A DNA stretch of 64,000 nucleotides, taken from positions 199,898-263,897 of the forward strand of contig PTJY01000003.1 in the NCBI GenBank assembly GCA_002937505.1. The letters run 5' to 3'. Of this stretch, positions 49,346-64,000 are shown piece after piece; positions within the stretch are counted from its first letter, which is position 1, and each line of letters starts with the position of its first letter. The DNA comes from Alphaproteobacteria bacterium MarineAlpha12_Bin1 (GTDB lineage: Bacteria > Pseudomonadota > Alphaproteobacteria > UBA6615). The notes under the pieces were generated by a model. That model saw only the letters and a list, made by a program, of their open reading frames with translations, was not told the DNA's origin and ran no database searches. The position numbers were made by a program, and so were the translations under genes.

Positions 49346-49483
49346 AAATAATTTTATATGAAATAAACTATCCTAGTTTGGCTAGTCGCTAACCCTAGTT
49401 TTTTTTCTAAACGGAGTTAAAACACTAATCTTTTAGATTTCAGAGCGCTAGTCCTATTGTTCTGGATAAGATTACACTCAGAC

Positions 49484-49762: not shown

Positions 49763-49778
49763 TCTTTTCTGCAAACGA

Positions 49779-50525
49779 TCAGTAACTTGATCGCCCTCCC
49801 GTAATATCAAAAACCGCACCTGTTGAAAACGAACATTCTTCTGATGATAACCAGGAAACCAATAAAGCTATTTCTTCTACCTCTACGAACCGACCCATAG
49901 GTATCTTAGACAGCATGTAATTCACATGTTCTTCCGACATTTGATCAAAGATTCGTGTTTTGGCAGCTGCTGGTGTGACGCAATTCACCCTTATATTACT
50001 ATCGGCTAATTCTTTACCAAGAGACTTAGTTAGACCAATTACGCCCGCTTTGGCAGCACTATAAGCTGGAGCATTGGGGTTGCCTTCTTTTCCTGCTACC
50101 GAGGATATATTGATTATTCTTCCATATCCGGAAGACATCATTATTGGAACAACCGTTCGGCAACAATAAAAGACTCCATTTAAATCTATATCAATAACTT
50201 GCTTCCAATCTTCTATAGGGTATTCCCAAGTGGGTAGATTAGGCCCTGAGATTCCAGCATTATTTACTAAAATATCAATTCCCCCCATCTGTTTGACTGT
50301 GTCTTGGGTGGCTTGGATGACTGAGCTAGGATTTGTCACATCGACTTCTGAGTAAAAGGCTTTATCCCCCAACTTTTCTGCAGTTTTTAAAACAAGATCT
50401 AGATCTAGATCCCAAAGGCAAACATCCGCTCCCTGACGTAAAAGTTGAGACGAGATCGCTAGACCGATGCCCTGAGCAGCACCTGTTACCACGGCCCGTT
50501 TACCCTTTAAACGAGGTTCATACAT
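49779..50525 (-). CDS. SDR oxidoreductase (LRA5 / 2-keto-3-deoxy-L-rhamnonate dehydrogenase-like)
   Basis: TGAAQGIG, NNAGISG, AGKEGNPNAPAYSAAK, C-terminal CSFSTGAVFDITGGR; substrate is inference. Confidence 0.75.
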   Translation of the reverse strand: MYEPRLKGKRAVVTGAAQGIGLAISSQLLRQGADVCLWDLDLDLVLKTAEKLGDKAFYSEVDVTNPSSVIQATQDTVKQMGGIDILVNNAGISGPNLPTWEYPIEDWKQVIDIDLNGVFYCCRTVVPIMMSSGYGRIINISSVAGKEGNPNAPAYSAAKAGVIGLTKSLGKELADSNIRVNCVTPAAAKTRIFDQMSEEHVNYMLSKIPMGRFVEVEEIALLVSWLSSEECSFSTGAVFDITGGRSSY

Positions 50526-50608
50526 AGATATCACTCCAGTCATAACAATTTTTATATAGTAAACAGGATGTTAGCTTAAGTCGTTAAAAAGGCAATTTAC
50601 AAACAACC

Positions 50609-50642
50609 AAAAAATAAGAGCCCTTCACTCATTGGGCTCTTA
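50609..50642 (-). terminator. Rho-independent terminator
   Basis: TAAGAGCCC (50615-50623)/GGGCTCTTA (50634-50642) stem followed by a T run on the minus strand, downstream of the 50687..51091 gene. Confidence 0.7.
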
Positions 50643-50686
50643 ATCTTTACTGGAAAACCTTCAAAAAGTTTCAAAAATATTTTTAT

Positions 50687-51091
50687 TTATTTCCACTCCC
50701 AAATTTCCCAAGTTGCATTACCTTCAGCATCAACATCCCACTCGTAAACCGCGGCAATTCCATTTAGACTAGAAAGGGATGGTGCGGACGTTTCAAAGTA
50801 AACAGAGCCCCTAAAGGCCGCACCACCATCTGATGTAAAATTACCAACTCCTGTTGCCCTAAAAGTTCCAACACCATCTTGAGCCATTACAACTCCTTGG
50901 TTAGGGCATTCACCTATAAGACTGCCATCTGATCTCATCTGAGCCCAATAAGTAGCTAAGGTATGCACTTCAACTCCTGCAAGAGTACCGTCTCCTTCTG
51001 CTGTAGTCTCAAATTTGGGAAGCGAGCCTTCAGCCGGTAAAGGTTTGTTTGAGCAAGAAGCCTTTAAAGAACCGATTTTTTCTCCCAACAT
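50687..51091 (-). CDS. Conserved-looking hypothetical all-beta protein
   Basis: GGAGAG SD before MLGEKIG, Gly-rich beta-strand pattern, ends WEIWEWK, has its own terminator. Confidence 0.75.
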   Translation of the reverse strand: MLGEKIGSLKASCSNKPLPAEGSLPKFETTAEGDGTLAGVEVHTLATYWAQMRSDGSLIGECPNQGVVMAQDGVGTFRATGVGNFTSDGGAAFRGSVYFETSAPSLSSLNGIAAVYEWDVDAEGNATWEIWEWK

Positions 51092-51206
51092 ATCTCTCTC
51101 CAATCACTGTTTATTATAATATTTTGTATGCAGATTAACACATATAAGTAAGTTTAACTTATTCTTACGAACACTATTCTAGTAATAGATCACTTTTATC
51201 AGTTAT

Positions 51207-52361
51207 TCAAAGTTTCTGAGCAACACCAGCTGCTGCTTCGCCAAGCAGACGACAACGGATACCCGTGCCCGCCCCTTCGCATTGAAAATTGGTGCAATAA
51301 CTAAAAGCTAAGTTTCGTTCCCTGTCACAAAAACCAAGCGCGCCGCCAGAACCTAATTTACCGAAAGCGGTCATATTCCTACCCATAGCTATGTATGGTG
51401 GGCTATTGTGCTCAAACCCTAGGCCCATTCGCAGATCCCAGCCGGTCATATAGCAAGTGTCTTCCCAAACCAATTTAGACGCCTGCTCCACAGTTGTTGG
51501 CTTAAGAATTCTTATGCCTTCAACTTCACCATCACCAGCTAACATGGCATATATTTTAGCTACACCGCGTGCATTACCATGTCCACCAAAAGCTGGTAAC
51601 TCTCCTTCTCTTATTTCCTTACAATTCAGTAAATCATCTCTCTCGGGACGTCCTGACCAGGCTCGATGCAAATTTGAACCCGGTTGAGCTCCATCCGACC
51701 AAAAAACGTTTTCAGGATTCAAGTGCATTGTAGCGCAGAGATTTGATTCGTCAGGGGATAGTCCAATATTATATTCAGCGTCAAGTGGACCCGATATTTC
51801 ATCGCGAATAAACTGACCTATCGATTTTCCCGAAACGTGACGCACCACCTCGCCAAGAATAAATCCAATATTTATCGTATTATATGCCCCCTTTGTCCCT
51901 GCTTCAAAAGCAGGCTCCTGTGCAGCAATAGCAGCGCACTGGGCCGCGTAGTTAAACCAATCACCGGGAACAGCTTGATCCGAAAAAATAGCGCCACATT
52001 CATGTCCAAGAACATGACTAACAAGAATATGTGACTTTCCCTTTTGAGCGAACTCAGGCCAATATTCTGCGACCGGAGCATTAATATTAACCTTACCTTG
52101 ATCTGATAGAACATGAACTGCCAAGGCGCACATAGACTTAGCCACCGAATTCATAAGTACTATGGTTTCCTCAACCCATGGGCTTTGACGATCTTCATCC
52201 TTGTGCCCTCCCCAAAGATCAACCACCTTTTCTCCATCTTTATAAACACAAACTCCAGCACCAATCTCCTTCCGACTAGAAAAATTCTCATAAAAAGTTT
52301 CCTCAACCGACGCAAACTCAGAATTGCAAAAACCTTCGATTGGTATCCCGTTATTCGTCAT
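51207..52361 (-). CDS. Serine hydrolase, beta-lactamase class C/esterase VIII family
   Basis: GAGVCVYKDGEKVVDLWGG, S-x-x-K (NSVAK), PVAEYWPEF, GAYN, AFGKLGSGG; no signal peptide. Confidence 0.88.
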   Translation of the reverse strand: MTNNGIPIEGFCNSEFASVEETFYENFSSRKEIGAGVCVYKDGEKVVDLWGGHKDEDRQSPWVEETIVLMNSVAKSMCALAVHVLSDQGKVNINAPVAEYWPEFAQKGKSHILVSHVLGHECGAIFSDQAVPGDWFNYAAQCAAIAAQEPAFEAGTKGAYNTINIGFILGEVVRHVSGKSIGQFIRDEISGPLDAEYNIGLSPDESNLCATMHLNPENVFWSDGAQPGSNLHRAWSGRPERDDLLNCKEIREGELPAFGGHGNARGVAKIYAMLAGDGEVEGIRILKPTTVEQASKLVWEDTCYMTGWDLRMGLGFEHNSPPYIAMGRNMTAFGKLGSGGALGFCDRERNLAFSYCTNFQCEGAGTGIRCRLLGEAAAGVAQKL

Positions 52362-52532
52362 AGTTCCTCCAGATAATACTCTAATCCAAGCCTAGTTAAT
52401 TCTCCTAATGTAATACTAAAGTGCCATTATTGCATTCTTCTTTTCCGTGGTGAATGCCCTTGTTGAGTCTTTATCACTCATCTATGATTTATATAATAAC
52501 TATTCTTAAAAAAGATAAGGGGTTAAAAGCTT

Positions 52533-52925
52533 ATGTCCACTGAACTTGAGATGCTGGTTTGGGTTTCTGGTTTAACGATTTTGATGTGGGTTCCATACAT
52601 CTTATCACATATTTCTAATAATGGACTTATGCCGTCTTTGACATATCAAGCGGATGAGAATTCTTTGACTGGATGGGCATTACGAGCCAAACGTGCCCAT
52701 TATAATGCAGTTGAAAATCTAGCTCCATTCGCAGCTTTAGTTATTGCTGCAAATTTAGCTGGAGTTACGAATGATGCGACTGTTTCCGCAGCAATTGCTT
52801 ATTTCTGGCTACGATTAGCTCACTATTTGACTTATTTAGCCGGCATACCATTTGCCCGGACACTAACTTTTGCCGGAGGTTGGTTAGCACAACTCTGTAT
52901 TCTATACCAAATTATAATAGCTTAA
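52533..52925 (+). CDS. MAPEG family membrane protein
   Basis: WALRAKRAHYNAVENL.PFA, hydrophobic helices, RLAH...Y. Confidence 0.85.
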   Translation: MSTELEMLVWVSGLTILMWVPYILSHISNNGLMPSLTYQADENSLTGWALRAKRAHYNAVENLAPFAALVIAANLAGVTNDATVSAAIAYFWLRLAHYLTYLAGIPFARTLTFAGGWLAQLCILYQIIIA

Positions 52926-52999
52926 TGCCATGGATTGCTTATGTTCAGATGTTAAATTTAAATAGAACCAAAGAAAACGGTTTTAGATAAATGTTCGAA

Positions 53000-54004
53000 C
53001 TAATCTAATCTCGGTTGTAAGACGATTTTGCCAAGAACCTTGCCTTCTTCCAACTGTTTGTGAGCTAACACAGCTTCACCAAGAGAAAGCTTTGAAAAGA
53101 TAACCGGTTTTATTCGTTCCTCGGCAATCATATCGATGAGCATAGATAAATCTTTAGAAGTATCCTCTGGGTTTTCGTCATACGAGTGGATAGAGAACAT
53201 GCGCACAGCGGGACTATGGTTCCACCTCTTACATTGTGCAGCGAACACATCATCTGTAGGTAATCCACCGATCAACCCATAGAGCACCAATGTGCCTGCA
53301 GGTGCTAATAAATCTAAGTAACCCACAAATTTTTCTCCCCCTACTGGATCAATGAAGTGGTCTACTCCTCGGTCATCAGTAATCTCCATTATACGTTTAG
53401 CCAAATCCTCTGTAAGGGTATTGATCACATGGTCAGCATTCTGATCACGGGCAAAGCTTGCCTTACTATCACTTCTCACAACAGCAATTGTTTCCAAGTC
53501 GGCATCTTTTGAAAGTTGCATCAAGGCGCTTCCCAAACCACCAGCAGCACCAACAATAACTATTGTTTCCCCTTTTCTTGCCCTCACTGCAGTATGCAAT
53601 ATGCGATGAGCAACTCTGTAATTTGTTAGACAAGCTGCCTCGGCAAGATCAACGTCATCACGACATGGAACGACAAAATCTGCATCTACAGAAACGTATT
53701 CTGCATAACAACTTCGTGTAGGAACATTTGTTACAATAACTGCATCACCATTTTTGTGACCTGTTACATCTTCCCCGATAGTCTCAATATATCCACTCAT
53801 TTCAATGCCAGGAATAGTCGGTAGTTCTGGCATCCAGGGATAACGCCCATTTCGGACTAGTTGATCAGCCAGCCCAACTCCGATTGAATGGGCCCGCACC
53901 AGAACCTCTCTTGGTCCTGGAGTCGGTCGGTTAATTTCATCGAGTTGAAGGACTTCTGGACCGCCTGTATGATGCAAGCGTATAGCGTTCATTGGGTTTT
54001 GCAT
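53000..54004 (-). CDS. Quinone oxidoreductase (MDR family)
   Basis: GGPEVLQ, PGIEMSG, GAAGGLG, AHKQLE...GKIVL. Confidence 0.85.
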   Translation of the reverse strand: MQNPMNAIRLHHTGGPEVLQLDEINRPTPGPREVLVRAHSIGVGLADQLVRNGRYPWMPELPTIPGIEMSGYIETIGEDVTGHKNGDAVIVTNVPTRSCYAEYVSVDADFVVPCRDDVDLAEAACLTNYRVAHRILHTAVRARKGETIVIVGAAGGLGSALMQLSKDADLETIAVVRSDSKASFARDQNADHVINTLTEDLAKRIMEITDDRGVDHFIDPVGGEKFVGYLDLLAPAGTLVLYGLIGGLPTDDVFAAQCKRWNHSPAVRMFSIHSYDENPEDTSKDLSMLIDMIAEERIKPVIFSKLSLGEAVLAHKQLEEGKVLGKIVLQPRLD

Positions 54005-54012
54005 CTGGTTTA

Positions 54013-54807
54013 TTATCCTATATTTGACGACAAACCACCATCAACTGGCATTATAATACCAGTTATGTAATTTGCCTCATCGGAAGCTAAAAATACTGCC
54101 GCATTTGCCACATCCCAGGCAGTGCCCATACGACGCAATAGTGGTACTCTTGCATCCCGTCCCCTTCTAACTGCATCTCTGTCTATTTTCTGCTCACGAG
54201 CTCTTCGTTCTATTGCCATTGGAGTATCCATAAGGCCTGGCAAAATGACATTTGCTCGAACTCCATAAGCTGCGTTTTCCATTGCAAGGTGGTGCGTCAT
54301 TGTATTAACAGCGCCCTTACCTGTCTTATATGTAATGCTATTGTGAGAACAGATAGAAGCTATTGAGGAGATATTTATTATCACTCCCTCTTTCTGATCT
54401 CTCATTACAGGAAGAACATGCTTGCAGGTCATAAACATGCCCTTCACATTCATTTCCATTAGCTGATCCCATATTGATGCATCCATTTCCTGGGTTTCAG
54501 TATCACCTTCAGAACGACCAACATTGTTATGCAAGATGTCAATTTTACCAAAATGCTTGTAGCACTCCTGAGCAATATTTTTACAATTAGATTCTTCTGT
54601 AATATCGGCGGTAAGTATTTTACAAATACCACCATTCTCTTCTATCATCCTAGATGTATCGGTTACCCAGTCTCTATTCTTATCTACTAAGAGTACCTTT
54701 GCACCTTCTTGTGCAAAACGAACAGCTGTAGCCCTACCATTACCAATTGTTTCACCGGGTTGCTGTCCAGCGCCGACCACAATAGCAACTTTATCCTTCA
54801 ATCTCAT
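54013..54807 (-). CDS. SDR oxidoreductase
   Basis: VVGAGQ..GETIGNGRA, LHNNVG, YKTGK, ILPGLMDTPM, GTAWDVANAA.FLASD. Confidence 0.88.
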   Translation of the reverse strand: MRLKDKVAIVVGAGQQPGETIGNGRATAVRFAQEGAKVLLVDKNRDWVTDTSRMIEENGGICKILTADITEESNCKNIAQECYKHFGKIDILHNNVGRSEGDTETQEMDASIWDQLMEMNVKGMFMTCKHVLPVMRDQKEGVIINISSIASICSHNSITYKTGKGAVNTMTHHLAMENAAYGVRANVILPGLMDTPMAIERRAREQKIDRDAVRRGRDARVPLLRRMGTAWDVANAAVFLASDEANYITGIIMPVDGGLSSNIG

Positions 54808-54843
54808 TGCCCTTCTCCTGGTTCATCCCTTCTGTTTGTTTTC

Positions 54844-55956
54844 CTAAAACTCCACAACGGAACGGATCGACTTTCCCTCATGCATGAGGTTAAACCCATG
54901 GTTAATTTCGTTTAAGCTGAGCTTATGAGTAATCATCGGATCAATTTCTATTTTGCCATCCATATACCAGTCGACAATATTGGGCACATCAGTTCTGCCC
55001 GACGCACCACCAAATGCGGTACCTCTCCAAACACGACCCGTAACTAGCTGGAATGGTCTTGTATTAATTTCAGCTCCGGCAGGAGCTACACCAATTATAA
55101 TACTTTCTCCCCATCCTTTATGAGCAGACTCTAATGCAATGCGCATCACAGAAACATTACCAGTAGCATCAAAGGTATAATCGGCGCCGCCGTTAGTCAG
55201 ATCAACTAGGTAGGCAACTAAATCTCCTTGTATATCTGACGGATTAACGAAATCTGTCATACCAAAATGGCTACCCATTGAAGCTTTACTAGCATTAATA
55301 TCAACACCGACGATTTGATCTGCTCCAGAGAGACGAAGGCCCTGAATCACATTCAGCCCTATGCCCCCAAGACCAAACACAATTGCTCGGCTCCCGATCT
55401 CGACTTTTGCGGTGTTAATAACTGCTCCGACGCCTGTCGTAACACCACATCCGATATAACAGATCTTATCAAATGGAGCGTCTTTTCGTACTTTTGCAAG
55501 TGCAATCTCTGGCACAACTGTATGGTTTGCAAAAGTAGAACATCCCATATAGTGATATATCGGTGTACCATCCAACATTGAAAAACGTGTAGACCCGTCA
55601 GGCAAAAGGCCCTGACCTTGAGTCGTCCGAATTGACTGACAGAGATTGGTTTTGGGGTTAAGGCAATAATCACATTCCCGGCATTCAGGCGTGTAAAGCG
55701 GGATCACATGGTCACCAATTTCAAGGCTGGTCACGCCTTCACCAACATCAATAACAATCCCGGCACCTTCATGACCTAGTATTGCGGGAAATATGCCCTC
55801 TGGATCATCGCCAGATCGAGTGAAATCATCAGTATGGCAGAGGCCAGTTGCCTTAATTTCCACTAATACCTCTCCTTTGCGTGGCATTTCTAAATTGACT
55901 TCCATGATTTCTAACTGTTTTCCAGCTTCTAAAGCGACTGCTGCACGTGTTTTCAT
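54844..55956 (-). CDS. frmA: S-(hydroxymethyl)glutathione dehydrogenase / class III ADH
   Basis: CHTD, GHEGAG, LYTPECREC..C...KTNLC, YMGCSTF, TRPFQLVTGRVW.G.AFGG. Confidence 0.96.
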   Translation of the reverse strand: MKTRAAVALEAGKQLEIMEVNLEMPRKGEVLVEIKATGLCHTDDFTRSGDDPEGIFPAILGHEGAGIVIDVGEGVTSLEIGDHVIPLYTPECRECDYCLNPKTNLCQSIRTTQGQGLLPDGSTRFSMLDGTPIYHYMGCSTFANHTVVPEIALAKVRKDAPFDKICYIGCGVTTGVGAVINTAKVEIGSRAIVFGLGGIGLNVIQGLRLSGADQIVGVDINASKASMGSHFGMTDFVNPSDIQGDLVAYLVDLTNGGADYTFDATGNVSVMRIALESAHKGWGESIIIGVAPAGAEINTRPFQLVTGRVWRGTAFGGASGRTDVPNIVDWYMDGKIEIDPMITHKLSLNEINHGFNLMHEGKSIRSVVEF

Positions 55957-56066
55957 TTAATTACCCCCTTGAAAAATTCTTTTTCTTAATTCTCTATCTT
56001 ATTTTTGTAACTTGATAAAAAACTATCCTATCTTCATGTTCCAATATAAGCGGAACTAAAGAGGCT

Positions 56067-56639
56067 TTACTCAATAAATAATATCTCTTTTATATATATT
56101 TTTGCCTGATGGTTTCTTCCAATAGCAACTATGCCCAAGGACGTAATACCTCTAGATTGAACAGTATTTGCTAACAGAAAACCTGATTTTTTGAATCCCT
56201 TAATTGGTAATATAAATTCCTTAAATTCTTCAGTGACAATAAATTCAGATTGATAGTACTGCCATGGAAACAACATTCCAGTAGTGCGTAAGTGAATAAA
56301 ATATTTTTGATTGTTACCTTTAGCTACGATTTTAATATATTTAGCTTTTGTTAAATTGTGATCCCTTAAGTTTCTCCGTATTTGTATAAATCCTCCATTA
56401 TTCTCGGTGGTCACATTTCCTGATAGTAAAGCATGAAAAGATCCTTCTTTTGTCTCAAAAACAACTGTTCCTGTTGAAACTCCACCCATTACAGCATCTG
56501 TAATGAATCTCCACTGATTTTGATCACGAAAGTTATCTCTAAAGACAACGTCCCCGGGTGATTTATTTATCGTAATTATCAAAACTAACAATAAAACGAC
56601 AATCGTATGAAAGAATGTTTTCAAATTTAAAAATCTCAA
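56067..56639 (-). CDS. CIA30 family protein
   Basis: W.FITD.VMGGVS, V.TENNGGFIQ, PWQYY; N-terminal hydrophobic segment. Confidence 0.85.
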   Translation of the reverse strand: MRFLNLKTFFHTIVVLLLVLIITINKSPGDVVFRDNFRDQNQWRFITDAVMGGVSTGTVVFETKEGSFHALLSGNVTTENNGGFIQIRRNLRDHNLTKAKYIKIVAKGNNQKYFIHLRTTGMLFPWQYYQSEFIVTEEFKEFILPIKGFKKSGFLLANTVQSRGITSLGIVAIGRNHQAKIYIKEILFIE

Positions 56640-56737
56640 CCAACAGCCACTTCAGTATCTAAAACTTACTGGATACAAAAATTTCACCGTTCGGATTATT
56701 TGTATTGTTGTAAATGACAAGGCTTTTCCATTATCCA

Positions 56738-57619
56738 TTAATCTTTTCGAATGTTATCAGTCTGCAGCGCCTCATAGATAATTGATAGCTCGCCTTCAAG
56801 TAATCCCATCTCAGCAACTTTCGCATAATAATCTCTAGTAAGACGTGCCACCGGCGCGGCCACCCCCAAACCATCCGCATGTTCGACAATATACCGCGTA
56901 TCCTTTTCAACCAAACTAGCCGGTGCTGGCGCCGGATTCCATTTCCTCGCAGCCATTAGAGGCGCACGTAATTCAAACTGAGTTGATGTAGCAACACTAG
57001 ATGTAACTGCCTCAATTATTTGTTCTGGCTCCAAGCCCGATGCGATACCAATATTCAGAGCTTCGGCTGTTACCAAAACGTGATTTGTCACCATAGCGTT
57101 TAGCACAAATTTAAGTTTAATGCCGTGACCAAAAGGACCAACATAGGGGCACTTGGGTGCCAACACTTCAAGGACAGGTCGAATTTCATCACAGGCGTCT
57201 TCATCACCACTTAACATAATTACTGCTTGTTTAGTCTGCATTGCATCAGGAGTACCGCTGATCGGAGTGTCTAGAACAAGGGCACCAGCAGGTGTGAGTG
57301 ACTCATAAACACGTTCCTTTAGATTAACTCCAAAAGTGCCCATATCAGCTACTACCAGCCCTTTCAGCACTCCTTCGGAGAGACCATCAGCGCCAAAGAT
57401 TGCTGTCTCCACATCTTCTTCACGAGCGAGGAGTACAATTAAAAAGTCTGTCATTTCTCCAAGCTCTCTCGGATTAGCAACAAGTTCTCCCCCCTCATCA
57501 AGTAACCATCGTGTGCTCTTCCTATCCACTGCAAAGACCTTCTGGCCATTAGCTAGTAATAACCGTGCCGCCATACCACCCATTCGCCCGAGACCTAGAA
57601 TCCCAATTTTATTTATCAT
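56738..57619 (-). CDS. 3-hydroxyisobutyrate/beta-hydroxyacid dehydrogenase family
   Basis: GILGLGRMG, DTPISG, catalytic KFVLN, KD motif. Confidence 0.87.
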   Translation of the reverse strand: MINKIGILGLGRMGGMAARLLLANGQKVFAVDRKSTRWLLDEGGELVANPRELGEMTDFLIVLLAREEDVETAIFGADGLSEGVLKGLVVADMGTFGVNLKERVYESLTPAGALVLDTPISGTPDAMQTKQAVIMLSGDEDACDEIRPVLEVLAPKCPYVGPFGHGIKLKFVLNAMVTNHVLVTAEALNIGIASGLEPEQIIEAVTSSVATSTQFELRAPLMAARKWNPAPAPASLVEKDTRYIVEHADGLGVAAPVARLTRDYYAKVAEMGLLEGELSIIYEALQTDNIRKD

Positions 57620-57716
57620 GATGATATATCTTTCTTTATTTGGTAATTCTGACGAGCCCGAATCTAACCCTACTTCATATTATTCAGTTTGATTATTTTG
57701 AATTCTAGCAGAAATA

Positions 57717-57932
57717 CTAGGGGTTTAATGTGTCAGGCTCTCTTCCCCAAGATATTTTATTCCAAAATCGTTCATGCACATAATAAAAGAAAGATGGAAT
57801 TATAGAACCGAGGCCAAAAATTCCCGCGTTTGTAACGCTACCCGTAGCAATATAGCCAAAAACTGCCCAATATAAAAAAACAAATGAACGCCAGGTTATG
57901 GTCTTTAAAAGCGATCTTTTTTTGGTTTCCAT
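57717..57932 (-). CDS. DUF2061 family small membrane protein
   Basis: ETKKRSLLKTITWR ... YYVHERFW..I.WG signature. Confidence 0.85.
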   Translation of the reverse strand: METKKRSLLKTITWRSFVFLYWAVFGYIATGSVTNAGIFGLGSIIPSFFYYVHERFWNKISWGREPDTLNP

Positions 57933-58076
57933 AATGACTCCATTTTTTATAACGAAAAATAATCTATGCTGAAGTTAAGTGGACATATTAATCTTAATAG
58001 AATTAATAAGCTAAAAGACTTATATGTTACCACTATGTTGTTAGAGTTTATTTTATTAAGTCAGTTCGCAAGAAGT

Positions 58077-60284
58077 TTAAGACCTTTCCTTATCCCATAT
58101 CGCATTTGCTGATTTTTGATTTTCAGACATACCAGTTCCCGTTGATTCAACGGGGTTGTAGTGAAGCGGTTTAGGGTTTCCAGCTTCTATACGTTTTAGT
58201 GCTTTTTCAGGTGTTTCCAGTAATTCTTTTGCTTTTACTGCTGCCTTACGATCTAACATTACGGGATCACCTGCATCAGGTGGTGGCATGACATCAGCAT
58301 TATAATAGGCCACTTTCTGCCTAGAAGAATCGAGTTTACGTTGAAGATTTAAATCACGTTGGTTTACTCCTACTGGTGGAAGGACGCATCTACCGTCAAC
58401 TATTTCTAAATCCAACCACCACTTTTTTACGGGATTACGTATACCGTGTCCCATGGTATCATCAAGTCTTACAGCAAGAGGAATTAAAAAGGGTTTTATC
58501 CAACGTAAATTAACGCCACACCAAGAGGCCACCCTAGTGGCGATAGGACCTTCCCAAGTAACAACCTTATTTAGTGGGCAAGTTTTCATACACCGTCCAC
58601 ACGCGGTGCCCTTAGGATTTGTTAGGCGATATCTAGTACACCGTTCTACATCCGGTTTCCACATTTCGTAGCCATTAAACATCACTTTATCGCCTAAAGA
58701 AATGGCGTCACAGGGGCATTCCCGAGCACATTTCAAACAGTTTGAACAAAAGTCTTGAAGGCCAAAATCCATTGGTCTATCTGGCAGCAACGGTAAATCG
58801 GTTGTTATAACTACAGTTTTTAAACGTGGACCTATAAAGGGGTTTAAGATTACTTCACCAATTCGACTTAATTCACCAAGACCAGCCAAAAGCGTTAATG
58901 GCACATGAAGCACATCCGAATCGGCGTTTGTTTGTGAGCGTGAAGAATAACCTAGAGAGCGAAAAAGCTCAGCCATAATTCCAGAAATCTCCGCACCTCG
59001 CATATACGCTCTCATCGACTGAGAACCAGAGATATAGTCGTCACCAGAGGCTCCTTCCATTGTCTCATATCCCTGATCAATGAGCATTACGATAGCATAC
59101 TTATTGTACGGTTCAATTTGGCTGCCGTCTTTGTTATGTGAATACCAAGCGTAACTAGGAATTTCGCAAATTCCCGTCATTTCACAACCTAAGAAATAGG
59201 AAAGAGATTTCACAGCCATGGAATTAGTTGCGGGATTATCATACCCTTCTACTTTATTGTAAGGAGCACCACCCTGTTCTGGCACCATACATTTGATCAA
59301 ACTTACCATTGATTGTGCAAATGGATGTTTAAAGGCGAAACGTGACCTCTCTTTTTGAGATTTGACACCAAGGTCTCCTCTTGCAGCACGCTCAAAAAAC
59401 TCCGCTCTCTTTGAAACCTTTGGAACTTCATTATCAATAATTAACGTCGTAGGACGATCGACTCGATCCACTTGTTCTAGAGGGTACTTGCTCATGTGGG
59501 TTGGACGCTTTTCCCTACGACGCCATTCCAGACCTGGAACAGCACCTCCTGCGCCAAACATGTATCCAATTCCCTTTGCTTTCTTTGCTCCAGCACCTAG
59601 TGGAAGGTCACAATATAACTCATATTCTGTCGTTAGCGCAGCGATAGAGAATTTTTCACCCAAATATGGATTTATAATATTGTTCTTATTTCGAATAGCT
59701 AGTCCACTCAAAACTGCTAAACGTTCAAGATCAACAGAGCCCGTTTCCCAGTCATGAGCATTAGCAGAAAAGCCCATCCATTGGATGTGTTCAGCGAGAG
59801 CCAACGAAATTTCAAAAGCCCTCAATTCACCGGCAACATTTTCAACCCCCCTAATCCAAGAATAAGCGAGATTATTAACTTCCGGAGTACGACCGTGTGC
59901 TACTATAATGACTACAGCGTGATTATGATCATATTTTTTTTCGTTCATCAACCAAACATTATTTGGAATTCTACATATACCTATTCCCGATGCATCAAGA
60001 AAATAGCCACCTCCCTTAATATCTTGGCTACGGCGTTTTAAATCATCAGGGACAGGTGCTTTTTCTGGTAAAGGATCAACGTGTCCAGTTTTTCTGAAAA
60101 TGCCGTGGTATTTACTAAGAGCTTTGCCAAGTAAATTAGTTGGATCTGAAAATTGACGTTGCTGACGAGGTAGCTGGGATCGGGCAGCCTCAGTCTGAAT
60201 TACCTGCTCATCATGAGGTAGGCGTTCTAAAGCGTAAGGCCCCCAATGAAAGGGCCTGTCCTTATTTTTTGAGGTAAAGAGCAT
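58077..60284 (-). CDS. Cobalamin-dependent catabolic reductive dehalogenase (NpRdhA/BhbA-like)
   Basis: Two Fe-S motifs (CSNCLKCARECP; C..C.RCMKTCP), AGLGELSRIG...NPF.GPR, duplicated RP.H...Y.LE modules; no Tat leader, no C-terminal reductase domain. Confidence 0.93.
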   Translation of the reverse strand: MLFTSKNKDRPFHWGPYALERLPHDEQVIQTEAARSQLPRQQRQFSDPTNLLGKALSKYHGIFRKTGHVDPLPEKAPVPDDLKRRSQDIKGGGYFLDASGIGICRIPNNVWLMNEKKYDHNHAVVIIVAHGRTPEVNNLAYSWIRGVENVAGELRAFEISLALAEHIQWMGFSANAHDWETGSVDLERLAVLSGLAIRNKNNIINPYLGEKFSIAALTTEYELYCDLPLGAGAKKAKGIGYMFGAGGAVPGLEWRRREKRPTHMSKYPLEQVDRVDRPTTLIIDNEVPKVSKRAEFFERAARGDLGVKSQKERSRFAFKHPFAQSMVSLIKCMVPEQGGAPYNKVEGYDNPATNSMAVKSLSYFLGCEMTGICEIPSYAWYSHNKDGSQIEPYNKYAIVMLIDQGYETMEGASGDDYISGSQSMRAYMRGAEISGIMAELFRSLGYSSRSQTNADSDVLHVPLTLLAGLGELSRIGEVILNPFIGPRLKTVVITTDLPLLPDRPMDFGLQDFCSNCLKCARECPCDAISLGDKVMFNGYEMWKPDVERCTRYRLTNPKGTACGRCMKTCPLNKVVTWEGPIATRVASWCGVNLRWIKPFLIPLAVRLDDTMGHGIRNPVKKWWLDLEIVDGRCVLPPVGVNQRDLNLQRKLDSSRQKVAYYNADVMPPPDAGDPVMLDRKAAVKAKELLETPEKALKRIEAGNPKPLHYNPVESTGTGMSENQKSANAIWDKERS

Positions 60285-60427
60285 AACATTGCCTTTCCAA
60301 TCACTCTCAATATTCTACATCAATTATTAAACTTTCCTTTAGACTAACAATCACCATACAAATAAAAAATAATTTATTCACCGTCGTTCGACACTACATA
60401 CAAAACGCCATTCCATACTACAGCTGG

Positions 60428-61711
60428 CTAATCAATAGGCTTTACATCAAAAGCCAGGCTTATTCTTCTTTCATTTTTTTCAGAAGCCACTGTGTAATGA
60501 AAGAGAGATGAAGGAAACATAACAATATCGCCTTGAGAAATATTACATTCCATACTAGGAAAATCTTTTGAATCTGAGGGGTAGCTGGCCCCCTTCAAAT
60601 CAAAAACAATATTTCCAGCGTTAGATCCCGATATTTTTTTCAATGATAGATATAAACTGCCACTCAACCATCCAAGCTTATGCATGTGTGGTTTAAGAAG
60701 CCCACCACCTTTCATATCTACTATCCATCCGTGAAGTTCGCTATTTTTAGGCCATTTAGTAATAAACCCATCAGTTGATTCAGAGAATTTTGACCTATAT
60801 TCTTCTATCTTTTGAAAAATAATTGTTTTCAAGGTCCTAAAAGCTGGATCGGAAGATAGAAAAACATTTCCAGAGGTCTGAGATCCGCTTTTCAACAATT
60901 CTTGGGGCTTGGCATCAAAACCCCTTGAAGATTTCAGTAGCTTATCGACTAAATCGTGATTAAACCCGTCTTGGGGGCTAAGCTTTGAAAGCTTTATATA
61001 TGATAGTGGTTCTCTACAAAATAAATTCCTATCAGGAATTTTATAGCGAATTGATGCATGAGTTTGAACCGCCGCCAGAAGAGGGTTTACTTCTCCTGTC
61101 TTAAGAATTTTCTCTTCTGATTCACTGTAAGTCTTTTTATCTTTAGATCTATATATTAATTCTAACCACAAACTAGAGCTTAACCGCTTCCCGCTTCTGC
61201 TGTAATGTTCAATTGCTTTATCATAAAAATCGCTACCAGCATCTCTATAGATCTCTGCAATCTTAAAATTAATATCATCAAGATCGTTATAAGTTAGTCT
61301 ATCTTTGTACGACAGAATCTGATGAAGGATTTTTAACGCGCGACTGGGTCTAGCTGTAAGTGCATAAACGTTTGCAAGGGACACCGAGATGCCTATTGAT
61401 GACGGGTCCTCTTCTAACGCATTTAAATAGCATTCTTCTGCTTTCTCGAGCTTACCTGTGTCTGTGTAAATGTTTCCTAAATTTCCTAAAAAAAGAGTAT
61501 TTGTAGGATTATCAACCAGCACTTGCTCGAAAATTTGTCTCGCTTGATCAATATTGCCTTGCCTCTTGTGTGCCAGTGCCAAAATATTAACTGCAGTAGC
61601 ACTTTGATATTTTCGGACAAGTTCTTGGGCTGCTGGAATGACAAGGCCCATGTCACCCTTATAATACAGAGCCTGGAGACTCTCGATCTTTTCTTGTCTT
61701 TCTTTGTCCAT
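60428..61711 (-). CDS. TPR protein with C-terminal putative 2OG-Fe(II) oxygenase domain
   Basis: TPR helices (NLGNIY...G..EKAEECY..AL), then PHMH..GWLSGSLYL, FPSSLFHYT, RISLAFD. Confidence 0.85.
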   Translation of the reverse strand: MDKERQEKIESLQALYYKGDMGLVIPAAQELVRKYQSATAVNILALAHKRQGNIDQARQIFEQVLVDNPTNTLFLGNLGNIYTDTGKLEKAEECYLNALEEDPSSIGISVSLANVYALTARPSRALKILHQILSYKDRLTYNDLDDINFKIAEIYRDAGSDFYDKAIEHYSRSGKRLSSSLWLELIYRSKDKKTYSESEEKILKTGEVNPLLAAVQTHASIRYKIPDRNLFCREPLSYIKLSKLSPQDGFNHDLVDKLLKSSRGFDAKPQELLKSGSQTSGNVFLSSDPAFRTLKTIIFQKIEEYRSKFSESTDGFITKWPKNSELHGWIVDMKGGGLLKPHMHKLGWLSGSLYLSLKKISGSNAGNIVFDLKGASYPSDSKDFPSMECNISQGDIVMFPSSLFHYTVASEKNERRISLAFDVKPID

Positions 61712-61731
61712 TAATAATTTATCAATCGTAT

Positions 61732-62148
61732 CTATAATATTAAATTATGGTCAATTAATAGCTTATAACAAGTCAATGTTTGCAGCCACGCCATATTATT
61801 CTTTAGTTCTTCTTTACTAATTTGAGACATCATTTTTATCCAAGGCTTTGGGCTTCCACCAAAATGCCCACTTTCTTTACCTAGTTGATAAAGTTTTTCT
61901 AAATACCCATCAACGTCACCAACAATGCGATTTACTATTATGTCAATTGTCGATTTTTTAATTTTCTCACTCGCAGATAATTCTGAATATAGTTTGAACC
62001 GAATAAGGCATCCAGTGACTTGTCCATAGAGGATGGAATTACTTCTATACGTCTCCCAGTTTATTTTACCACTAGTATGAGCGAGAGAGTTGGTCGGGAA
62101 AAATAATATTAGAATTAGCAGCACAAGAAATAAGTTTGAAAGTTTCAC
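61732..62148 (-). CDS. Hypothetical secreted protein
   Basis: GTG start with GGAG SD; signal peptide ending SLA-H; two Cys; no recognised family. Confidence 0.65.
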   Translation of the reverse strand: MKLSNLFLVLLILILFFPTNSLAHTSGKINWETYRSNSILYGQVTGCLIRFKLYSELSASEKIKKSTIDIIVNRIVGDVDGYLEKLYQLGKESGHFGGSPKPWIKMMSQISKEELKNNMAWLQTLTCYKLLIDHNLIL

Positions 62149-62188
62149 GATAATCTCCTGTCGCTGAATGAACTTACTTTATCTTGTA

Positions 62189-62560
62189 TTAAGTTTTTTT
62201 TGGTGGAAAAATCTTCCACATAAGAAATGTCCACCCCAATAGTATACAGTATAAAACTATGAAAAACTCTATTGGAAAATCCCAATAAATTAATTTTTCA
62301 ATCCAATGTCCAATGAATGTTTCAGATTGAGTGATTCCCCGCAATTTATTTTCAATAGAGGTAAGTGGGCAGGTTATTCCTAGTAATGTTTCAAGCGTGA
62401 CAAACGCCATCAACGCACAATGGGATATTCTTAATTTCTTGTTTGAAGTCCACTCCCAATGGAAAGTGTAACCAATTGGTATAAGAAGTAATCCAGAGGC
62501 AACAAAGACTACAATGCAAAAATGAAAAACTAAAACAATGTCTGCGAGAAAAAAAGTCAC
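62189..62560 (-). CDS. DUF2784 family membrane protein
   Basis: LADIVLVFH, CPLTSIE..LR, FIGHWIEKLIY signature. Confidence 0.85.
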   Translation of the reverse strand: MTFFLADIVLVFHFCIVVFVASGLLLIPIGYTFHWEWTSNKKLRISHCALMAFVTLETLLGITCPLTSIENKLRGITQSETFIGHWIEKLIYWDFPIEFFIVLYCILLGWTFLMWKIFPPKKT

Positions 62561-62562
62561 CG

Positions 62563-64000
62563 TTAAATACCAATTAATTTTACAGCCACTTGTTTTGTAA
62601 AAAATGAGATCGCAATTACTTCAAACGTATAGTTATTTATGGAAGCAAATTCAGTTAATGCTTTAAATTCATCTTGTTCCCAACTTTCATGAATTATGAA
62701 TTCGTCAAAGATAAGAACAGTGTGTTTATCCATTACTGGATTTGAGTAATTTAAAGCACAAAGAGTGGAAGAGTATAAATCTGCATCAAAATTTATTACT
62801 GATGCTATAGGACGAGACTCAGAATAGAATATCGGTAGAGTATCTTCAAATTTACCTACAATAAATTCCCCTCCTTTGATATCAGGTATATTTCCATCAC
62901 TTGTATACGAACCCGATGGCTCAGTGCGATTACCGACGCGCCAGTCTTCCGGCAAACCTGAAAAAGTGTCAAATCCGTAACCTTTTTTAAAAGACTTAAT
63001 AAGGTATTTAAATGCTTCACCCCTCCACACACCAAATTCATAAAAAGGTCTTGAACGAATACTTTGCTTAACAATCGCGTCAAAAAAATGCCACCTATTG
63101 AAATATAAGTCAGGTAGATTAGGTAGGCTGAAAACCCATGAAAATGATCGCATGTAACTATGTTGTTTGAATTCAGATTTCATCAAATTATCAAAGTCAT
63201 CCCTATCGCCTTGATAAAACCTTAGGGCAGCCTTTGTTAATTTTGCTGGTACATGGTTTGCATCTACCATCAAACATTTTCCAACCCAATGTTCAGCACC
63301 TTGAATAGTCCTTTCCATGCCAGACAAGTTCCAGAGGGCCTCAACAAAATCAGGTCTCAATTCTATTGCCTGTCTCAAGCTTACCTCCGCCTCGTCTAAC
63401 CTACCCAGTTCGTTTCGAATAACACCCAAGTTGTTATGGGCTTCGGCAAAGTCAGGTTTCAGTGCTATCGCTTGCCTCACGCTTGTCTCTGCCTCGTCCA
63501 ATTTCCCCAATGCCTGAAGCGTATTGCCCAAGCTGTTATGGGCTTCAGAAAAATCAGGATTCAGTTCTATCGCCTGCCTCAAGAACGCCTCAGCCTCATC
63601 CAACCTACCCTGTGCTTGGAGCGTGTTACCCAAATTGTTATAAGCTTCGGCATAATCAGATTTCAACGCTATCGCTTGCCTCATACTTGCCTCTGCCTCG
63701 TCTAACCTACCGAGTTCATTTAGCGTATTACCCAGGTTGTTATGAGCTTCGGCATAATCAGATTTCAACGCTATCGCTTGCCCCAAACTTGCCTCTGCCT
63801 CAGACAACCTGCCCAGTGCTTGGAAAGTGTTACCTAAGTTACTATAAGCTTCGGGAAAATCTGACTTTAATGCTAGCGCTTGCCTCAAACTCGCCTCTGC
63901 CTCAGACAACCTGCCCATTTCATTAAACGTATTACCCAGATTGTTATGAGCTTCAGCATCTTGAGGGGCTAGGTGGACAGCTCTTTGATTCGCACTTAGG
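62563..64000 (-). CDS. TPR-repeat protein with TylF/MycF-like SAM methyltransferase domain (5' end outside window)
   Basis: Frame stays open beyond 63918 to the edge (LSANQRAVHLAPQDAEAHNNLG); at least 6 TPRs; EFGVWRG, GFDTFSGLPEDW, G.FEDTL, DADLYSS, IFDEF. Confidence 0.87.
   Translation of the reverse strand, partial: LSANQRAVHLAPQDAEAHNNLGNTFNEMGRLSEAEASLRQALALKSDFPEAYSNLGNTFQALGRLSEAEASLGQAIALKSDYAEAHNNLGNTLNELGRLDEAEASMRQAIALKSDYAEAYNNLGNTLQAQGRLDEAEAFLRQAIELNPDFSEAHNSLGNTLQALGKLDEAETSVRQAIALKPDFAEAHNNLGVIRNELGRLDEAEVSLRQAIELRPDFVEALWNLSGMERTIQGAEHWVGKCLMVDANHVPAKLTKAALRFYQGDRDDFDNLMKSEFKQHSYMRSFSWVFSLPNLPDLYFNRWHFFDAIVKQSIRSRPFYEFGVWRGEAFKYLIKSFKKGYGFDTFSGLPEDWRVGNRTEPSGSYTSDGNIPDIKGGEFIVGKFEDTLPIFYSESRPIASVINFDADLYSSTLCALNYSNPVMDKHTVLIFDEFIIHESWEQDEFKALTEFASINNYTFEVIAISFFTKQVAVKLIGI
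63335..63965. repeat. 102-bp degenerate tandem repeat encoding TPR units (about 6 copies)
   Basis: Anchor GCCTC(T/A)GCCTC-like word recurs at 63383, 63485, 63587, 63689, 63791 and 63893; exact 38-mer at 63643-63680 and 63745-63782. Confidence 0.9.

What the first reader, a model, noticed from the sequence alone, without database searches (positions are those of the whole stretch)
58077..60284. Stand-alone aerobic-type reductive dehalogenase with an apparently intact ortho-halophenol active site
Seen: 735 aa, two 4Fe-4S Cys motifs, no twin-arginine leader, no obvious rdhB anchor gene, and an internal duplication (RPFHWGPYALERL near the N-terminus, RPTHMSKYPLEQV about 260 aa later). Counting codons from 60284 gives Ser423, Tyr427 (QSMRAY), Lys489 (PRLKT) and Arg553 (CTRYR). 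Known, recalled from the Nitratireductor pacificus NpRdhA structure and needing alignment to confirm: Ser422, Tyr426, Lys488 and Arg552 bind and protonate 3,5-dibromo-4-hydroxybenzoate. All four match at a constant +1 offset. Inference: an oxygen-tolerant, B12-dependent debrominase for halophenols in an AT-rich, probably planktonic alphaproteobacterium.
Basis: partly seen in the sequence, partly recalled or inferred. Interest (0 to 1): 0.8.

Follow-up and report, generated by a model that had tools for sequence, protein, structure and literature searches.

The report
NpRdhA-type cytoplasmic reductive dehalogenase gene
This gene encodes a full-length relative of a structurally solved, B12-dependent enzyme that removes bromine or chlorine from phenolic compounds; it belongs to a large family common in marine bacteria, so it is a sound but ordinary find.

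Summary
ORF 58077-60284 (-) encodes 735 aa with eight Fe-S cysteines, no twin-arginine leader, no rdhB and a real internal duplication.

It matches the solved Nitratireductor pacificus dehalogenase NpRdhA (PDB 4RAS) end to end: E 3.7e-195, and a model TM-score of 0.87-0.93 at 44-45% identity. Ser423, Tyr427, Lys489 and Arg553 align with NpRdhA Ser422, Tyr426, Lys488 and Arg552. Of 12 published pocket residues, 9 are identical and 3 differ (K307R, P311A, A419G).

QueG is excluded. It scores 20.6 bits against a 200-bit cut-off, and a true QueG lies elsewhere in the genome.

The family is very large: 2994 clusters at E <= 1e-20. All four catalytic residues are invariant in 201 of 201 relatives, so an intact site is typical.

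New context:
- The host is a 2.3 Mb marine alphaproteobacterium with no corrin-ring synthesis genes found, but a riboswitch-controlled B12 uptake cluster.
- No reductase partner is linked to the gene.
- No PobA, PcaH or HmgA ring-cleavage route was found.
- A sister species carries tctBAC in the same slot.

Verdict: a new member of a known kind. Activity and substrate are untested.

The parts
58077..60284 (-). rdhA-like CDS, 735 aa: NpRdhA-type cytoplasmic reductive dehalogenase
   Evidence: ORF. 4ras_A E 3.7e-195 over query 6-702. TIGR02486 175 bits against a cut-off of 160.35. Model TMt 0.92-0.93 to 4RAS/6ZX*.
59520..60284 (-). [quoted passage not shown]
   Evidence: Self-BLASTP aligns 72-232 with 334-508, E 4e-16. 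Second, weak TIGR02486 stretch of 23.8 bits. The literature describes this vestigial duplication in catabolic RdhAs (PMC10463259 passages).
58761..59519 (-). Residues 256-508: cobalamin-binding core with the substrate pocket (F296, F297, R313, F316, A317, G420, S423, M424, Y427, N453, K489)
   Evidence: Alignment to 4ras_A. Pocket list from PMC7565698 passages. Coordinates checked. Conservation in 201 sequences.
58560..58760 (-). Residues 509-575: two [4Fe-4S] binding motifs (C513, C516, C519, C523; C549, C562, C565, C569) and R553
   Evidence: Sequence. Weak Pfam Fer4_7/Fer4 matches at 513-571. All eight Cys present in 201 of 201 sequences.
58080..58559 (-). Residues 576-735: C-terminal region. 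It aligns with NpRdhA to residue 702. The last ~33 residues extend beyond NpRdhA and are modelled with low confidence.
   Evidence: Alignment ends at query 702 / chain 696. pLDDT is 55-82 in the last three 10-residue blocks. Relatives of 733-739 aa cover 97-100% of the query.
60285..60427 (-). 143-nt upstream intergenic region with an SD-like GGAAAGG. One promoter-like site (60350-60323) is no better than chance.
   Evidence: sequence; 8 promoter-like sites against 7.7 expected. One metatranscriptome contig spans 60146-60337.

Best explanation
The gene encodes a cytoplasmic, monomeric reductive dehalogenase of the NpRdhA ('truncated catabolic RdhA') type, carrying cobalamin and two [4Fe-4S] clusters.

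Inferred mechanism, by homology to the NpRdhA crystal complexes. An ortho-halogenated phenolic substrate binds above the corrin. Its hydroxyl is held by Ser423, Lys489 and Arg553, and its halogen ligates the cobalt. Two electrons arrive through the two Fe-S clusters from a separately encoded, unidentified ferredoxin or flavodoxin system. Tyr427, activated by Lys489, protonates the carbon as halide leaves.

Cofactor supply. The corrinoid is imported rather than made. The genome has a cobalamin-riboswitch-controlled TonB receptor and Btu-like ABC cluster, plus nucleotide-loop genes, but no corrin-ring pathway was found.

Likely substrates and role. The pocket has Gly instead of Ala419, Arg instead of Lys307 and Ala instead of Pro311. 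With the rest of the pocket conserved, it probably still takes 3,5-dihalo-4-hydroxy-aromatics or 2,6-dihalophenols, with somewhat more room for the second halogen. No PobA, PcaH or HmgA was found, so its role here may be detoxification or partial conversion of natural marine bromophenolics rather than full mineralisation.

Shown: homology, fold, residue conservation, cofactor-uptake genes. Inferred: cofactor binding, activity, substrate, electron donor, oxygen tolerance.
For: Homology and fold:
- 4ras_A E 3.7e-195 over query 6-702.
- TIGR02486 175 bits, above the 160.35 cut-off.
- AlphaFold model pLDDT 85.7, pTM 0.90. Foldseek TMq 0.87-0.88, TMt 0.92-0.93, rmsd 2.3-2.6 A, 44-45% identity to 14 NpRdhA chains.

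Active site:
- S423/Y427/K489/R553 align with S422/Y426/K488/R552. Their roles are described in PMC7565698 (passages).
- 9 of 12 published pocket residues are identical.
- All four catalytic residues and eight Cys are present in 201 of 201 relatives.

Family-defining architecture:
- The vestigial duplicated domain is present, as described for catabolic RdhAs (PMC10463259 passages).

Cofactor supply:
- Cobalamin riboswitch at 121.5 bits, 287 nt upstream of a TonB-dependent receptor whose best match is the B12 receptor, followed by BtuF/C/D-like genes and TonB. CobS (Pfam, over cut-off), CobT-like and CobC-like genes lie nearby.

Occurrence:
- Near-identical DNA in marine and seawater metagenomes. 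Excluding the 6 rows flagged as possible sources, 10 further DNA rows come from 7 studies.
- Short contigs at >=99% identity inside the CDS in 4 of 4 marine metatranscriptome runs laid.
Against: No activity, cofactor or substrate data exist for this protein or, to my knowledge (recalled), for any member of its 63-tip subclade.

Three pocket residues differ from NpRdhA (K307R, P311A, A419G). The differences are fixed or nearly fixed in the subfamily: G in 201 of 201, R in 184 of 201, A or S in 199 of 201. The physiological substrate may therefore differ from that of NpRdhA.

No ferredoxin or reductase gene is linked, unlike the N. pacificus cluster.

No conserved neighbour exists in 89 related loci; the best cluster is in 10 of 89.

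No PobA, PcaH or HmgA was found in the 100%-complete genome, so a catabolic use of a hydroxybenzoate product is unsupported.

Pfam does not recognise a dehalogenase domain; it gives only sub-threshold Fer4 hits. In the six-frame genome search the best single TIGR02486 stretch scores 151.7 bits, below the cut-off.

The Btu, CobT, CobC and CobS NCBIfam matches are best hits but fall below curated cut-offs.

Contigs from RNA libraries do not prove transcription (tool warning).
Confidence: 0.8

Rival explanations
1. It is a true NpRdhA-family enzyme, but its physiological substrate is not an ortho-halophenol of the NpRdhA/BhbA type. It may be another natural organohalogen, or it may catalyse a non-halide reductive reaction, in a detoxifying or scavenging role.
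For: Three pocket positions differ from NpRdhA and are fixed across the marine subfamily. No aromatic ring-cleavage route was found. There is no conserved genomic partner hinting at a pathway. The family is far more widespread (2994 clusters at E <= 1e-20 among 7999 scored) than known bromoxynil-type catabolism would suggest.
Against: The whole hydroxyl-binding and proton-donor set (S, Y, K, R) and 5 of the 8 other pocket residues are identical to NpRdhA. The three changes are conservative or make the pocket slightly larger. The more distant JtRdhA (about 39% identical to NpRdhA) still debrominates the same compounds (PMC10463259 passages).
Confidence: 0.12
2. The gene is an inactive or decaying accessory gene: a recent acquisition with no electron donor and no cofactor synthesis in a streamlined genome.
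For: It was not found in the 2 other species of the genus searched. The sister species has tctBAC in the same slot. No linked reductase is present. No corrin-ring synthesis genes were found. Its closest relatives are not those of its own family's genomes.
Against: The frame is intact over 735 codons, with every invariant family residue kept. G+C is 0.417, like its surroundings. A B12 uptake cluster exists. The same sequence recurs at >=79% of sampled words in 10 DNA runs of 7 studies beyond the possible sources. Fragments occur in 4 metatranscriptome runs.
Confidence: 0.05
3. It is an epoxyqueuosine reductase (QueG) or another class-III B12 enzyme, not a dehalogenase.
For: QueG shares the corrinoid/2x[4Fe-4S] core. 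There is a weak TIGR00276 match of 20.6 bits and 5d08 at E 0.011.
Against: The TIGR00276 cut-off is 200 bits. The genome has a real QueG at G000:C1:235357-236367 with 433.7 bits. QueG structures give TMt 0.35-0.40 against 0.92-0.93 for NpRdhA.
Confidence: 0.02

Closest known systems
NpRdhA, catabolic reductive dehalogenase of Nitratireductor pacificus pht-3B (PDB 4RAS, 6ZXU, 6ZXX, 6ZY0, 6ZY1)
   Same: End-to-end homology (E 3.7e-195) and the same fold (TMt 0.92-0.93). Same architecture: vestigial duplicated domain, cobalamin core and 2x[4Fe-4S], with no TAT signal, no RdhB and no fused reductase. S/Y/K/R catalytic set and 9 of 12 pocket residues identical.
   Different: Only 44-45% identical. 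K307R, P311A and A419G in the pocket. About 33 extra C-terminal residues. No neighbouring ferredoxin reductase or ferredoxins, which the N. pacificus cluster is reported to have. The host is a small B12-importing marine genome.
Self-sufficient catabolic RdhAs: BhbA (Comamonas sp. 7D-2) and JtRdhA (Jhaorihella thermophila)
   Same: Same catabolic RdhA class, with the duplicated cobalamin-binding domain and Y/K/R residues, and activity on 3,5-dibromo-4-hydroxybenzoate (PMC10463259 passages).
   Different: These carry a C-terminal phthalate-dioxygenase-reductase-like domain (FMN, 2Fe-2S, NADPH). The window protein ends after the RdhA module (735 aa; no such Pfam domain).
Respiratory RdhAs such as PceA of Sulfurospirillum multivorans (PDB 4UQU)
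   Same: Shared cobalamin core and Fe-S module (E 2.5e-25; TMt 0.51-0.58).
   Different: PceA-type enzymes have a TAT leader and an RdhB anchor, form dimers and lack the vestigial domain. None of these respiratory features is present here.
Ros_A3X954, marine Roseobacter debrominase (PMC13101508)
   Same: A TAT-less marine RDase that debrominates 2,6-dibromophenol (abstract and sections 6, 10 and 11 read).
   Different: A much shorter protein of another RDase lineage, with Fe-S motifs at residues 283-345 and a PF13486 domain. It is not the NpRdhA architecture.

Membership tests
Catabolic (cytoplasmic) reductive dehalogenase, NpRdhA type | Full-length sequence homology to a characterised member | tested here: met
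   4ras_A E 3.7e-195, query 6-702 against chain 5-696.
Catabolic (cytoplasmic) reductive dehalogenase, NpRdhA type | Curated RDH family model above cut-off | tested here: met
   TIGR02486 175 bits against 160.35 for the whole protein. The best single stretch in the six-frame search is 151.7 bits. Pfam gives no dehalogenase domain.
Catabolic (cytoplasmic) reductive dehalogenase, NpRdhA type | Two [4Fe-4S] binding motifs (eight Cys) | tested here: met
   C513/516/519/523 and C549/562/565/569. Invariant in 201 of 201 sequences.
Catabolic (cytoplasmic) reductive dehalogenase, NpRdhA type | [quoted passage not shown] | tested here: met
   Self-BLASTP E 4e-16. Second TIGR02486 stretch. The model superposes on full-length NpRdhA. 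Feature defined in PMC10463259.
Catabolic (cytoplasmic) reductive dehalogenase, NpRdhA type | No TAT signal and no RdhB anchor | tested here: met
   No RR and no hydrophobic leader in residues 1-45 (read by eye; no predictor run). The neighbours are not RdhB-like. The DUF2061 ORF is kept in the sister species without rdhA.
Catabolic (cytoplasmic) reductive dehalogenase, NpRdhA type | Catalytic Tyr-Lys dyad plus Arg/Ser hydroxyl-binding residues | tested here: met
   Y427, K489, R553 and S423 align with Y426, K488, R552 and S422. Roles from PMC7565698.
Catabolic (cytoplasmic) reductive dehalogenase, NpRdhA type | Binds cobalamin and reductively dehalogenates; oxygen tolerant | not testable with these tools
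   Only indirect support: a B12 riboswitch and Btu-like uptake cluster in the genome.
Self-sufficient catabolic RdhA (BhbA/JtRdhA subclass) | C-terminal phthalate-dioxygenase-reductase-like domain fused to RdhA | tested here: not met
   The protein is 735 aa and ends about 33 residues beyond the NpRdhA alignment. No flavin/NAD or 2Fe-2S Pfam domain is found. It belongs to the 'truncated' clade described.
Respiratory RdhA (PceA type) | TAT leader, adjacent rdhB, about 450-500 aa without a duplicated domain | tested here: not met
   PceA matches only residues 432-623.
Epoxyqueuosine reductase QueG | TIGR00276 equivalog score above 200 bits | tested here: not met
   20.6 bits. A separate QueG in the genome scores 433.7 bits.

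The most novel reading that the evidence does not exclude
The window protein represents a very large, biochemically uncharacterised marine subfamily of NpRdhA-like enzymes with its own fixed pocket signature (Gly at A419, Arg at K307, Ala/Ser at P311).

In small, B12-importing planktonic genomes that lack aromatic ring-cleavage pathways, this subfamily may not serve carbon catabolism at all. It may instead detoxify or strip halogen from natural bromophenolics such as bromophenols or bromotyrosine-type metabolites. That would tie oxic-ocean organobromine turnover to the supply of scavenged B12 and to a still unknown, unlinked electron donor.
Probability: 0.3. Interest if true: 0.55.

Novelty: new member of a known kind. 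Interest (0 to 1): 0.3.

Why it matters
It adds a well-supported NpRdhA-type dehalogenase from a small, free-living marine alphaproteobacterium.

It shows that public annotation under-calls this family. Sources name relatives 'ferredoxin' or 'Fe-S protein', and Pfam sees only weak Fer4.

The context raises a modest ecological question about what these very common enzymes do in the oxic ocean: imported B12, no linked reductase, no ring-cleavage pathway, a gene slot that differs between sister species, and fragments in metatranscriptomes.

The protein is also a reasonable expression target, because its closest solved relative is 44-45% identical and the pocket differs at only three positions. 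None of this changes what is known about the enzyme class.

Tried and rejected

Conserved partner next to the gene. tblastn of ten window neighbours against 89 related loci found none beside rdhA in more than 9 of 89, and those were generic SDRs. DUF2061, CIA30, TPR-2OG and DUF2784 were found in 0 of 89. De novo clustering of 608 neighbour ORFs gave a largest cluster in 10 of 89 loci. No partner emerges.

DUF2061 ORF as a possible membrane anchor. Rejected, because it is kept next to the same dehydrogenase gene in the sister species that lacks rdhA.

Promoter and terminator scan. Uninformative: 8 promoter-like sites against 7.7 expected.

T7RdhA (PMC10008544). It proved to be PceA-like and not relevant.

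Ros_A3X954. A different RDase lineage.

Payne et al. 2015 (PMC4968649). Not held. What I say of it comes from later papers or recall.

First alignment attempt. It failed because a locus reference was on the wrong strand. I repeated it without two loci.

RNA contigs. Parts of the stretch without cover in the RNA contigs say nothing. RNA runs X18-X20 held only small shares of the sampled words (0.05-0.12).

Not done. No alignment to BhbA or JtRdhA, no tree with characterised RdhAs, no signal-peptide or TM predictor, no supplements read.
Full report
**Observation**

The minus-strand ORF 58077..60284 is open, starts with ATG and encodes 735 aa. A GGAAAGG word lies 7 nt upstream of the ATG.

It has 16 cysteines. 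Eight of them form C513-x2-C516-x2-C519-x3-C523-P, and C549 with C562-x2-C565-x3-C569-P. The first 45 residues hold no RR pair and no hydrophobic stretch (read by eye, no predictor run).

The internal duplication is real and much larger than the two short motifs. BLASTP of residues 1-255 against 256-520 aligns 72-232 with 334-508: 26% identity over 175 columns, E 4e-16. The curated RDH model also hits both halves in the six-frame search, at 151.7 and 23.8 bits.

**What it is**

A phmmer search of all PDB chains puts the Nitratireductor pacificus enzyme NpRdhA first:
- 4ras_A: E 3.7e-195, 653.6 bits, query 6-702 against chain 5-696.
- 6zxu and 6zy0: nearly the same.
- Respiratory PceA (4uqu): E 2.5e-25, over residues 432-623 only.
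- QueG (5d08): E 0.011.

NCBIfam gives TIGR02486 (reductive dehalogenase) at 175 bits, above its 160.35 cut-off. The QueG equivalog TIGR00276 scores 20.6 bits against a 200-bit cut-off. Pfam recognises only sub-threshold Fer4 domains at 513-571.

I built an AlphaFold2 model on a 37-row alignment. It has mean pLDDT 85.7 and pTM 0.90. Foldseek against the PDB returns:

| Target | TM-score | Other |
|---|---|---|
| 14 NpRdhA chains | TMq 0.87-0.88, TMt 0.92-0.93 | rmsd 2.3-2.6 A, 44-45% identity |
| PceA-type chains | TMt 0.51-0.58 | |
| QueG | TMt 0.35-0.40 | |

The genome also has a separate true QueG (433.7 bits) and only this one rdhA.

**Active site**

The roles of the NpRdhA residues come from passages of Halliwell et al. 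2020 (PMC7565698):
- K488, R552 and S422 hydrogen-bond the substrate hydroxyl.
- Y426 is the proton donor, in a dyad with K488.
- F290, F310, P311, A419 and M423 form the hydrophobic half of the pocket.
- F291 and N452 move on binding.
- K307 sits at the pocket entrance and can bind the carboxylate.
- A419 lines the pocket for the second, non-ligating bromine.

Counting along the printed HMMER alignment (my hand count, with window residues verified), the counterparts here are:

| NpRdhA | Window protein | Status |
|---|---|---|
| F290 | F296 | same |
| F291 | F297 | same |
| K307 | R313 | changed |
| F310 | F316 | same |
| P311 | A317 | changed |
| A419 | G420 | changed |
| S422 | S423 | same |
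| M423 | M424 | same |
| Y426 | Y427 | same |
| N452 | N453 | same |
| K488 | K489 | same |
| R552 | R553 | same |

So 9 of 12 are identical, including all four polar and catalytic residues. The three changes are K307R, P311A and A419G.

**How special is that?**

Not very. The word-index search found 2994 protein clusters at E <= 1e-20 among the 7999 candidates scored. The best 120 are 58-79% identical and mostly 733-739 aa. The few that carry a name are called 'ferredoxin', 'Fe-S protein' or 'reductive dehalogenase'.

The 80 kept are labelled Rhodospirillales/Rhodospirillaceae, Gammaproteobacteria, Woeseiaceae, Acidimicrobiia, Entotheonella, Poriferisodalis and others.

I aligned 201 sequences: P0001, its 119 best database hits, and 81 of 89 locus translations. 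Eight loci were dropped because the best tblastn segment covered fewer than 650 query residues or held a stop. Some rows may duplicate each other. In this set:
- S, Y, K, R and the eight Fe-S cysteines are present in 201 of 201.
- Gly at the A419 position is present in 201 of 201.
- Arg at the K307 position is present in 184 of 201.
- Ala (125) or Ser (74) occupies the P311 position.

The intact catalytic set is therefore the family norm. The three differences from NpRdhA are a fixed signature of this large marine subfamily, not a peculiarity of the window. The set was chosen by similarity to the query, so it says nothing about more distant RdhAs.

**Literature frame**

Passages of Fisher et al. 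2023 (PMC10463259) state the following:
- Some, such as BhbA and JtRdhA, are fused to a phthalate-dioxygenase-reductase-like domain.
- A 'truncated' clade, including NpRdhA, lacks that domain.
- JtRdhA is about 39% identical to NpRdhA and keeps Y426, K488 and R552.

The window protein has the duplication and lacks the reductase, so it belongs to the truncated clade. Cytosolic RdhA-like genes in marine MAGs, with TM-scores of 0.92-0.95 to NpRdhA, have already been reported from cold seeps (PMC12219181 passages).

I read only passages or named sections of these papers and no supplements. Payne et al. 2015 was not held.

**Surroundings**

The window is core chromosome: fabD/G/F, rpsF, rplI, dnaB, radA, purF, der, panBC.

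| Position | Strand | Gene or family |
|---|---|---|
| 60428-61711 (upstream) | - | TPR + PF13759 2OG-Fe(II) oxygenase |
| 61732-62148 | - | protein with no Pfam match |
| 62189-62560 | - | DUF2784 |
| 62563-63918 | - | TPR protein |
| 57717-57932 (downstream) | - | 71-aa DUF2061 membrane protein |
| 56738-57619 | - | beta-hydroxyacid-dehydrogenase-like |
| 56067-56639 | - | CIA30 |
| 53000-55956 | - | three ADH/SDR genes |

No ferredoxin, reductase, regulator or transporter is adjacent. None of these neighbours recurs beside rdhA in the 89 related loci, and de novo clustering finds no neighbour family in more than 10 of 89. G+C of the gene region (0.417) matches the window.

**Variable slot**

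Among 41 genomes searched (G000 plus 40 relatives), 19 have a match at E <= 1e-10. That is 17 of 24 in the same family, but 0 of 2 other species of the same genus, which are 100% and 95% complete.

Contig C45 of sister species G002 is collinear with the window:

| Window range | Identity to G002 C45 |
|---|---|
| 51200-56591 | 88% |
| 56754-57960 | 79% |
| 57961-60425 | no match |
| 60426-62565 | 91% |
| 62563-63543 | 89% |

In that interval G002 carries tctB, tctA and tctC instead (L097 3731-6857). They lie between the same TPR/2OG gene and the same DUF2061 plus dehydrogenase genes.

I built a FastTree on the 201-sequence alignment and rooted it, by assumption, on the ten Acidimicrobiia-labelled rows:
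- The window protein falls in a 63-tip clade (support 0.999) of MAG proteins labelled Rhodospirillaceae, Rhodospirillales, Hyphomicrobiales and MarineAlpha3.
- That clade is sister to a mostly gammaproteobacterial group (147 tips together, support 0.961).
- The eight homologues from the window's own family, and one from another family, fall outside (their common ancestor with P0001 spans 188 of 201 tips).

This fits an accessory gene with a history of gain, loss or paralogy. The direction cannot be settled with these data.

**Host and cofactor**

The genome is 2.34 Mb in 12 contigs, 100% complete, with about 40% G+C in the window. Its DnaB is closest to unnamed or 'Alphaproteobacteria bacterium' MAG proteins (up to 83% identity), then to Kiloniellales and Pelagibius at about 60%.

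Family searches of the genome gave:
- No match for CobN, CobD/CbiB, CbiC or CobU.
- A CobS match over the Pfam cut-off.
- Two B12-binding-domain proteins.
- One cobalamin riboswitch, at 121.5 bits.

The riboswitch lies 287 nt upstream of a TonB-dependent receptor whose best match is the B12 receptor. BtuF-like, BtuC-like and BtuD-like genes and a TonB gene follow. CobC-like, CobS and CobT-like genes lie 5-7 kb away. Those NCBIfam matches are best hits but fall below the curated cut-offs.

The likeliest reading is a corrinoid importer and remodeller, not a producer. The dehalogenase would then depend on scavenged B12.

**Fate of the product**

- PobA was not found: best 23.4 bits against a 538.7 cut-off.
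- Protocatechuate 3,4-dioxygenase beta was not found in G000.
- Homogentisate dioxygenase was not found.
- A LigB-family match is marginal (27.8 against 26.3 bits) and is equally present in rdhA-less G002.

Only these four families were searched. Within that limit, a BhbA-style pathway from halobenzoate to the TCA cycle is not supported. This leaves detoxification or partial conversion as a live possibility.

**Occurrence and expression**

The gene's sampled 31-mers occur in 20 of 24 listed runs, from 13 studies, and 16 runs hold half or more of the words. All but one of the 20 rows (X1, coded 'organism A') are labelled marine or seawater metagenome. Six rows are flagged as possible sources and should be left out. 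That leaves ten DNA rows from 7 studies with 0.79-0.96 of the words.

I laid contigs of four metatranscriptome runs from four studies on 56000-62000. Short pieces at >=99% identity fall inside the CDS in all four. One spans 60146-60337, across the start codon. The tool warns that DNA can be present in RNA libraries and that contigs cannot show level or strand. This is a hint of expression, not proof.

**Verdict**

This is a bona fide member of the NpRdhA-type truncated catabolic RdhA family. It most likely removes halogens ortho to a phenolic hydroxyl by the cobalt-halogen mechanism.

It is a new member of a known and very common kind, so the interest is modest. The points worth keeping are:
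- the fixed three-residue pocket signature of the marine subfamily;
- the dependence on imported B12;
- the missing redox partner and downstream pathway;
- the rdhA/tctBAC swap between sister species.

Activity, substrate, electron donor and oxygen tolerance remain untested.

Noticed in passing
L097 3731-6857 (G002:C45), equivalent to window 57961-60425: The sister species carries tctB-tctA-tctC (tripartite tricarboxylate transporter) exactly where this genome has rdhA. Both lie between the same TPR/2OG-oxygenase gene and the same DUF2061 plus dehydrogenase genes, so this is a small variable slot.
   Followed up: partly
window 57717-57932 (-): A 71-aa DUF2061 predicted membrane protein (36 bits) lies just downstream of rdhA. 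It is conserved next to the dehydrogenase gene in rdhA-less G002, so it is not an RdhB substitute.
   Followed up: yes
L099 (G000:C5:471000-489000), riboswitch at L099 ~10693-10905: The genome's single cobalamin riboswitch precedes a TonB-dependent receptor, BtuF/C/D-like genes and TonB. CobC-like, CobS and CobT-like genes are nearby. No CobN, CbiC, CobD or CobU was found in the genome, which suggests a B12 or corrinoid scavenger.
   Followed up: partly
loci L023-L067 group, e.g. L067 1506-3155 and L031 3218-3541: In 6 of 89 related loci (gammaproteobacterial MAGs) rdhA is preceded on the same strand by a ~550-aa multi-pass membrane protein and a ~107-aa small membrane protein. To my eye they resemble a solute:sodium symporter pair. 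They were not scanned against any family library.
   Followed up: no
window 43799-44959 (-) and 42371-43639 (-): A carbon-nitrogen hydrolase (nitrilase superfamily, PF00795) and an FAD-monooxygenase-like gene lie 13-16 kb from rdhA. The known bromoxynil route begins with a nitrilase (recalled), but no link is shown here.
   Followed up: no
window 60428-61711 (-) and 62563-63918 (-): There are two TPR-repeat proteins. The first is fused to a PF13759 putative 2OG-Fe(II) oxygenase domain and sits directly upstream of rdhA on the same strand, 143 nt away.
   Followed up: no
L046, L052, L059 and similar loci: Homologues at 46-50% identity occur in MAGs labelled Acidimicrobiia, Candidatus Entotheonella and Candidatus Poriferisodalis. 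The last two names are sponge-symbiont names by my recall. Sponges are rich in brominated aromatics (recalled).
   Followed up: no
window 44000-57700: There is an unusually dense run of oxidoreductase and hydratase genes: MR/MLE, enoyl-CoA hydratase, four Zn-ADH-type genes, two SDRs, a beta-lactamase-fold protein, MAPEG and CIA30. No pathway assignment is evident.
   Followed up: no
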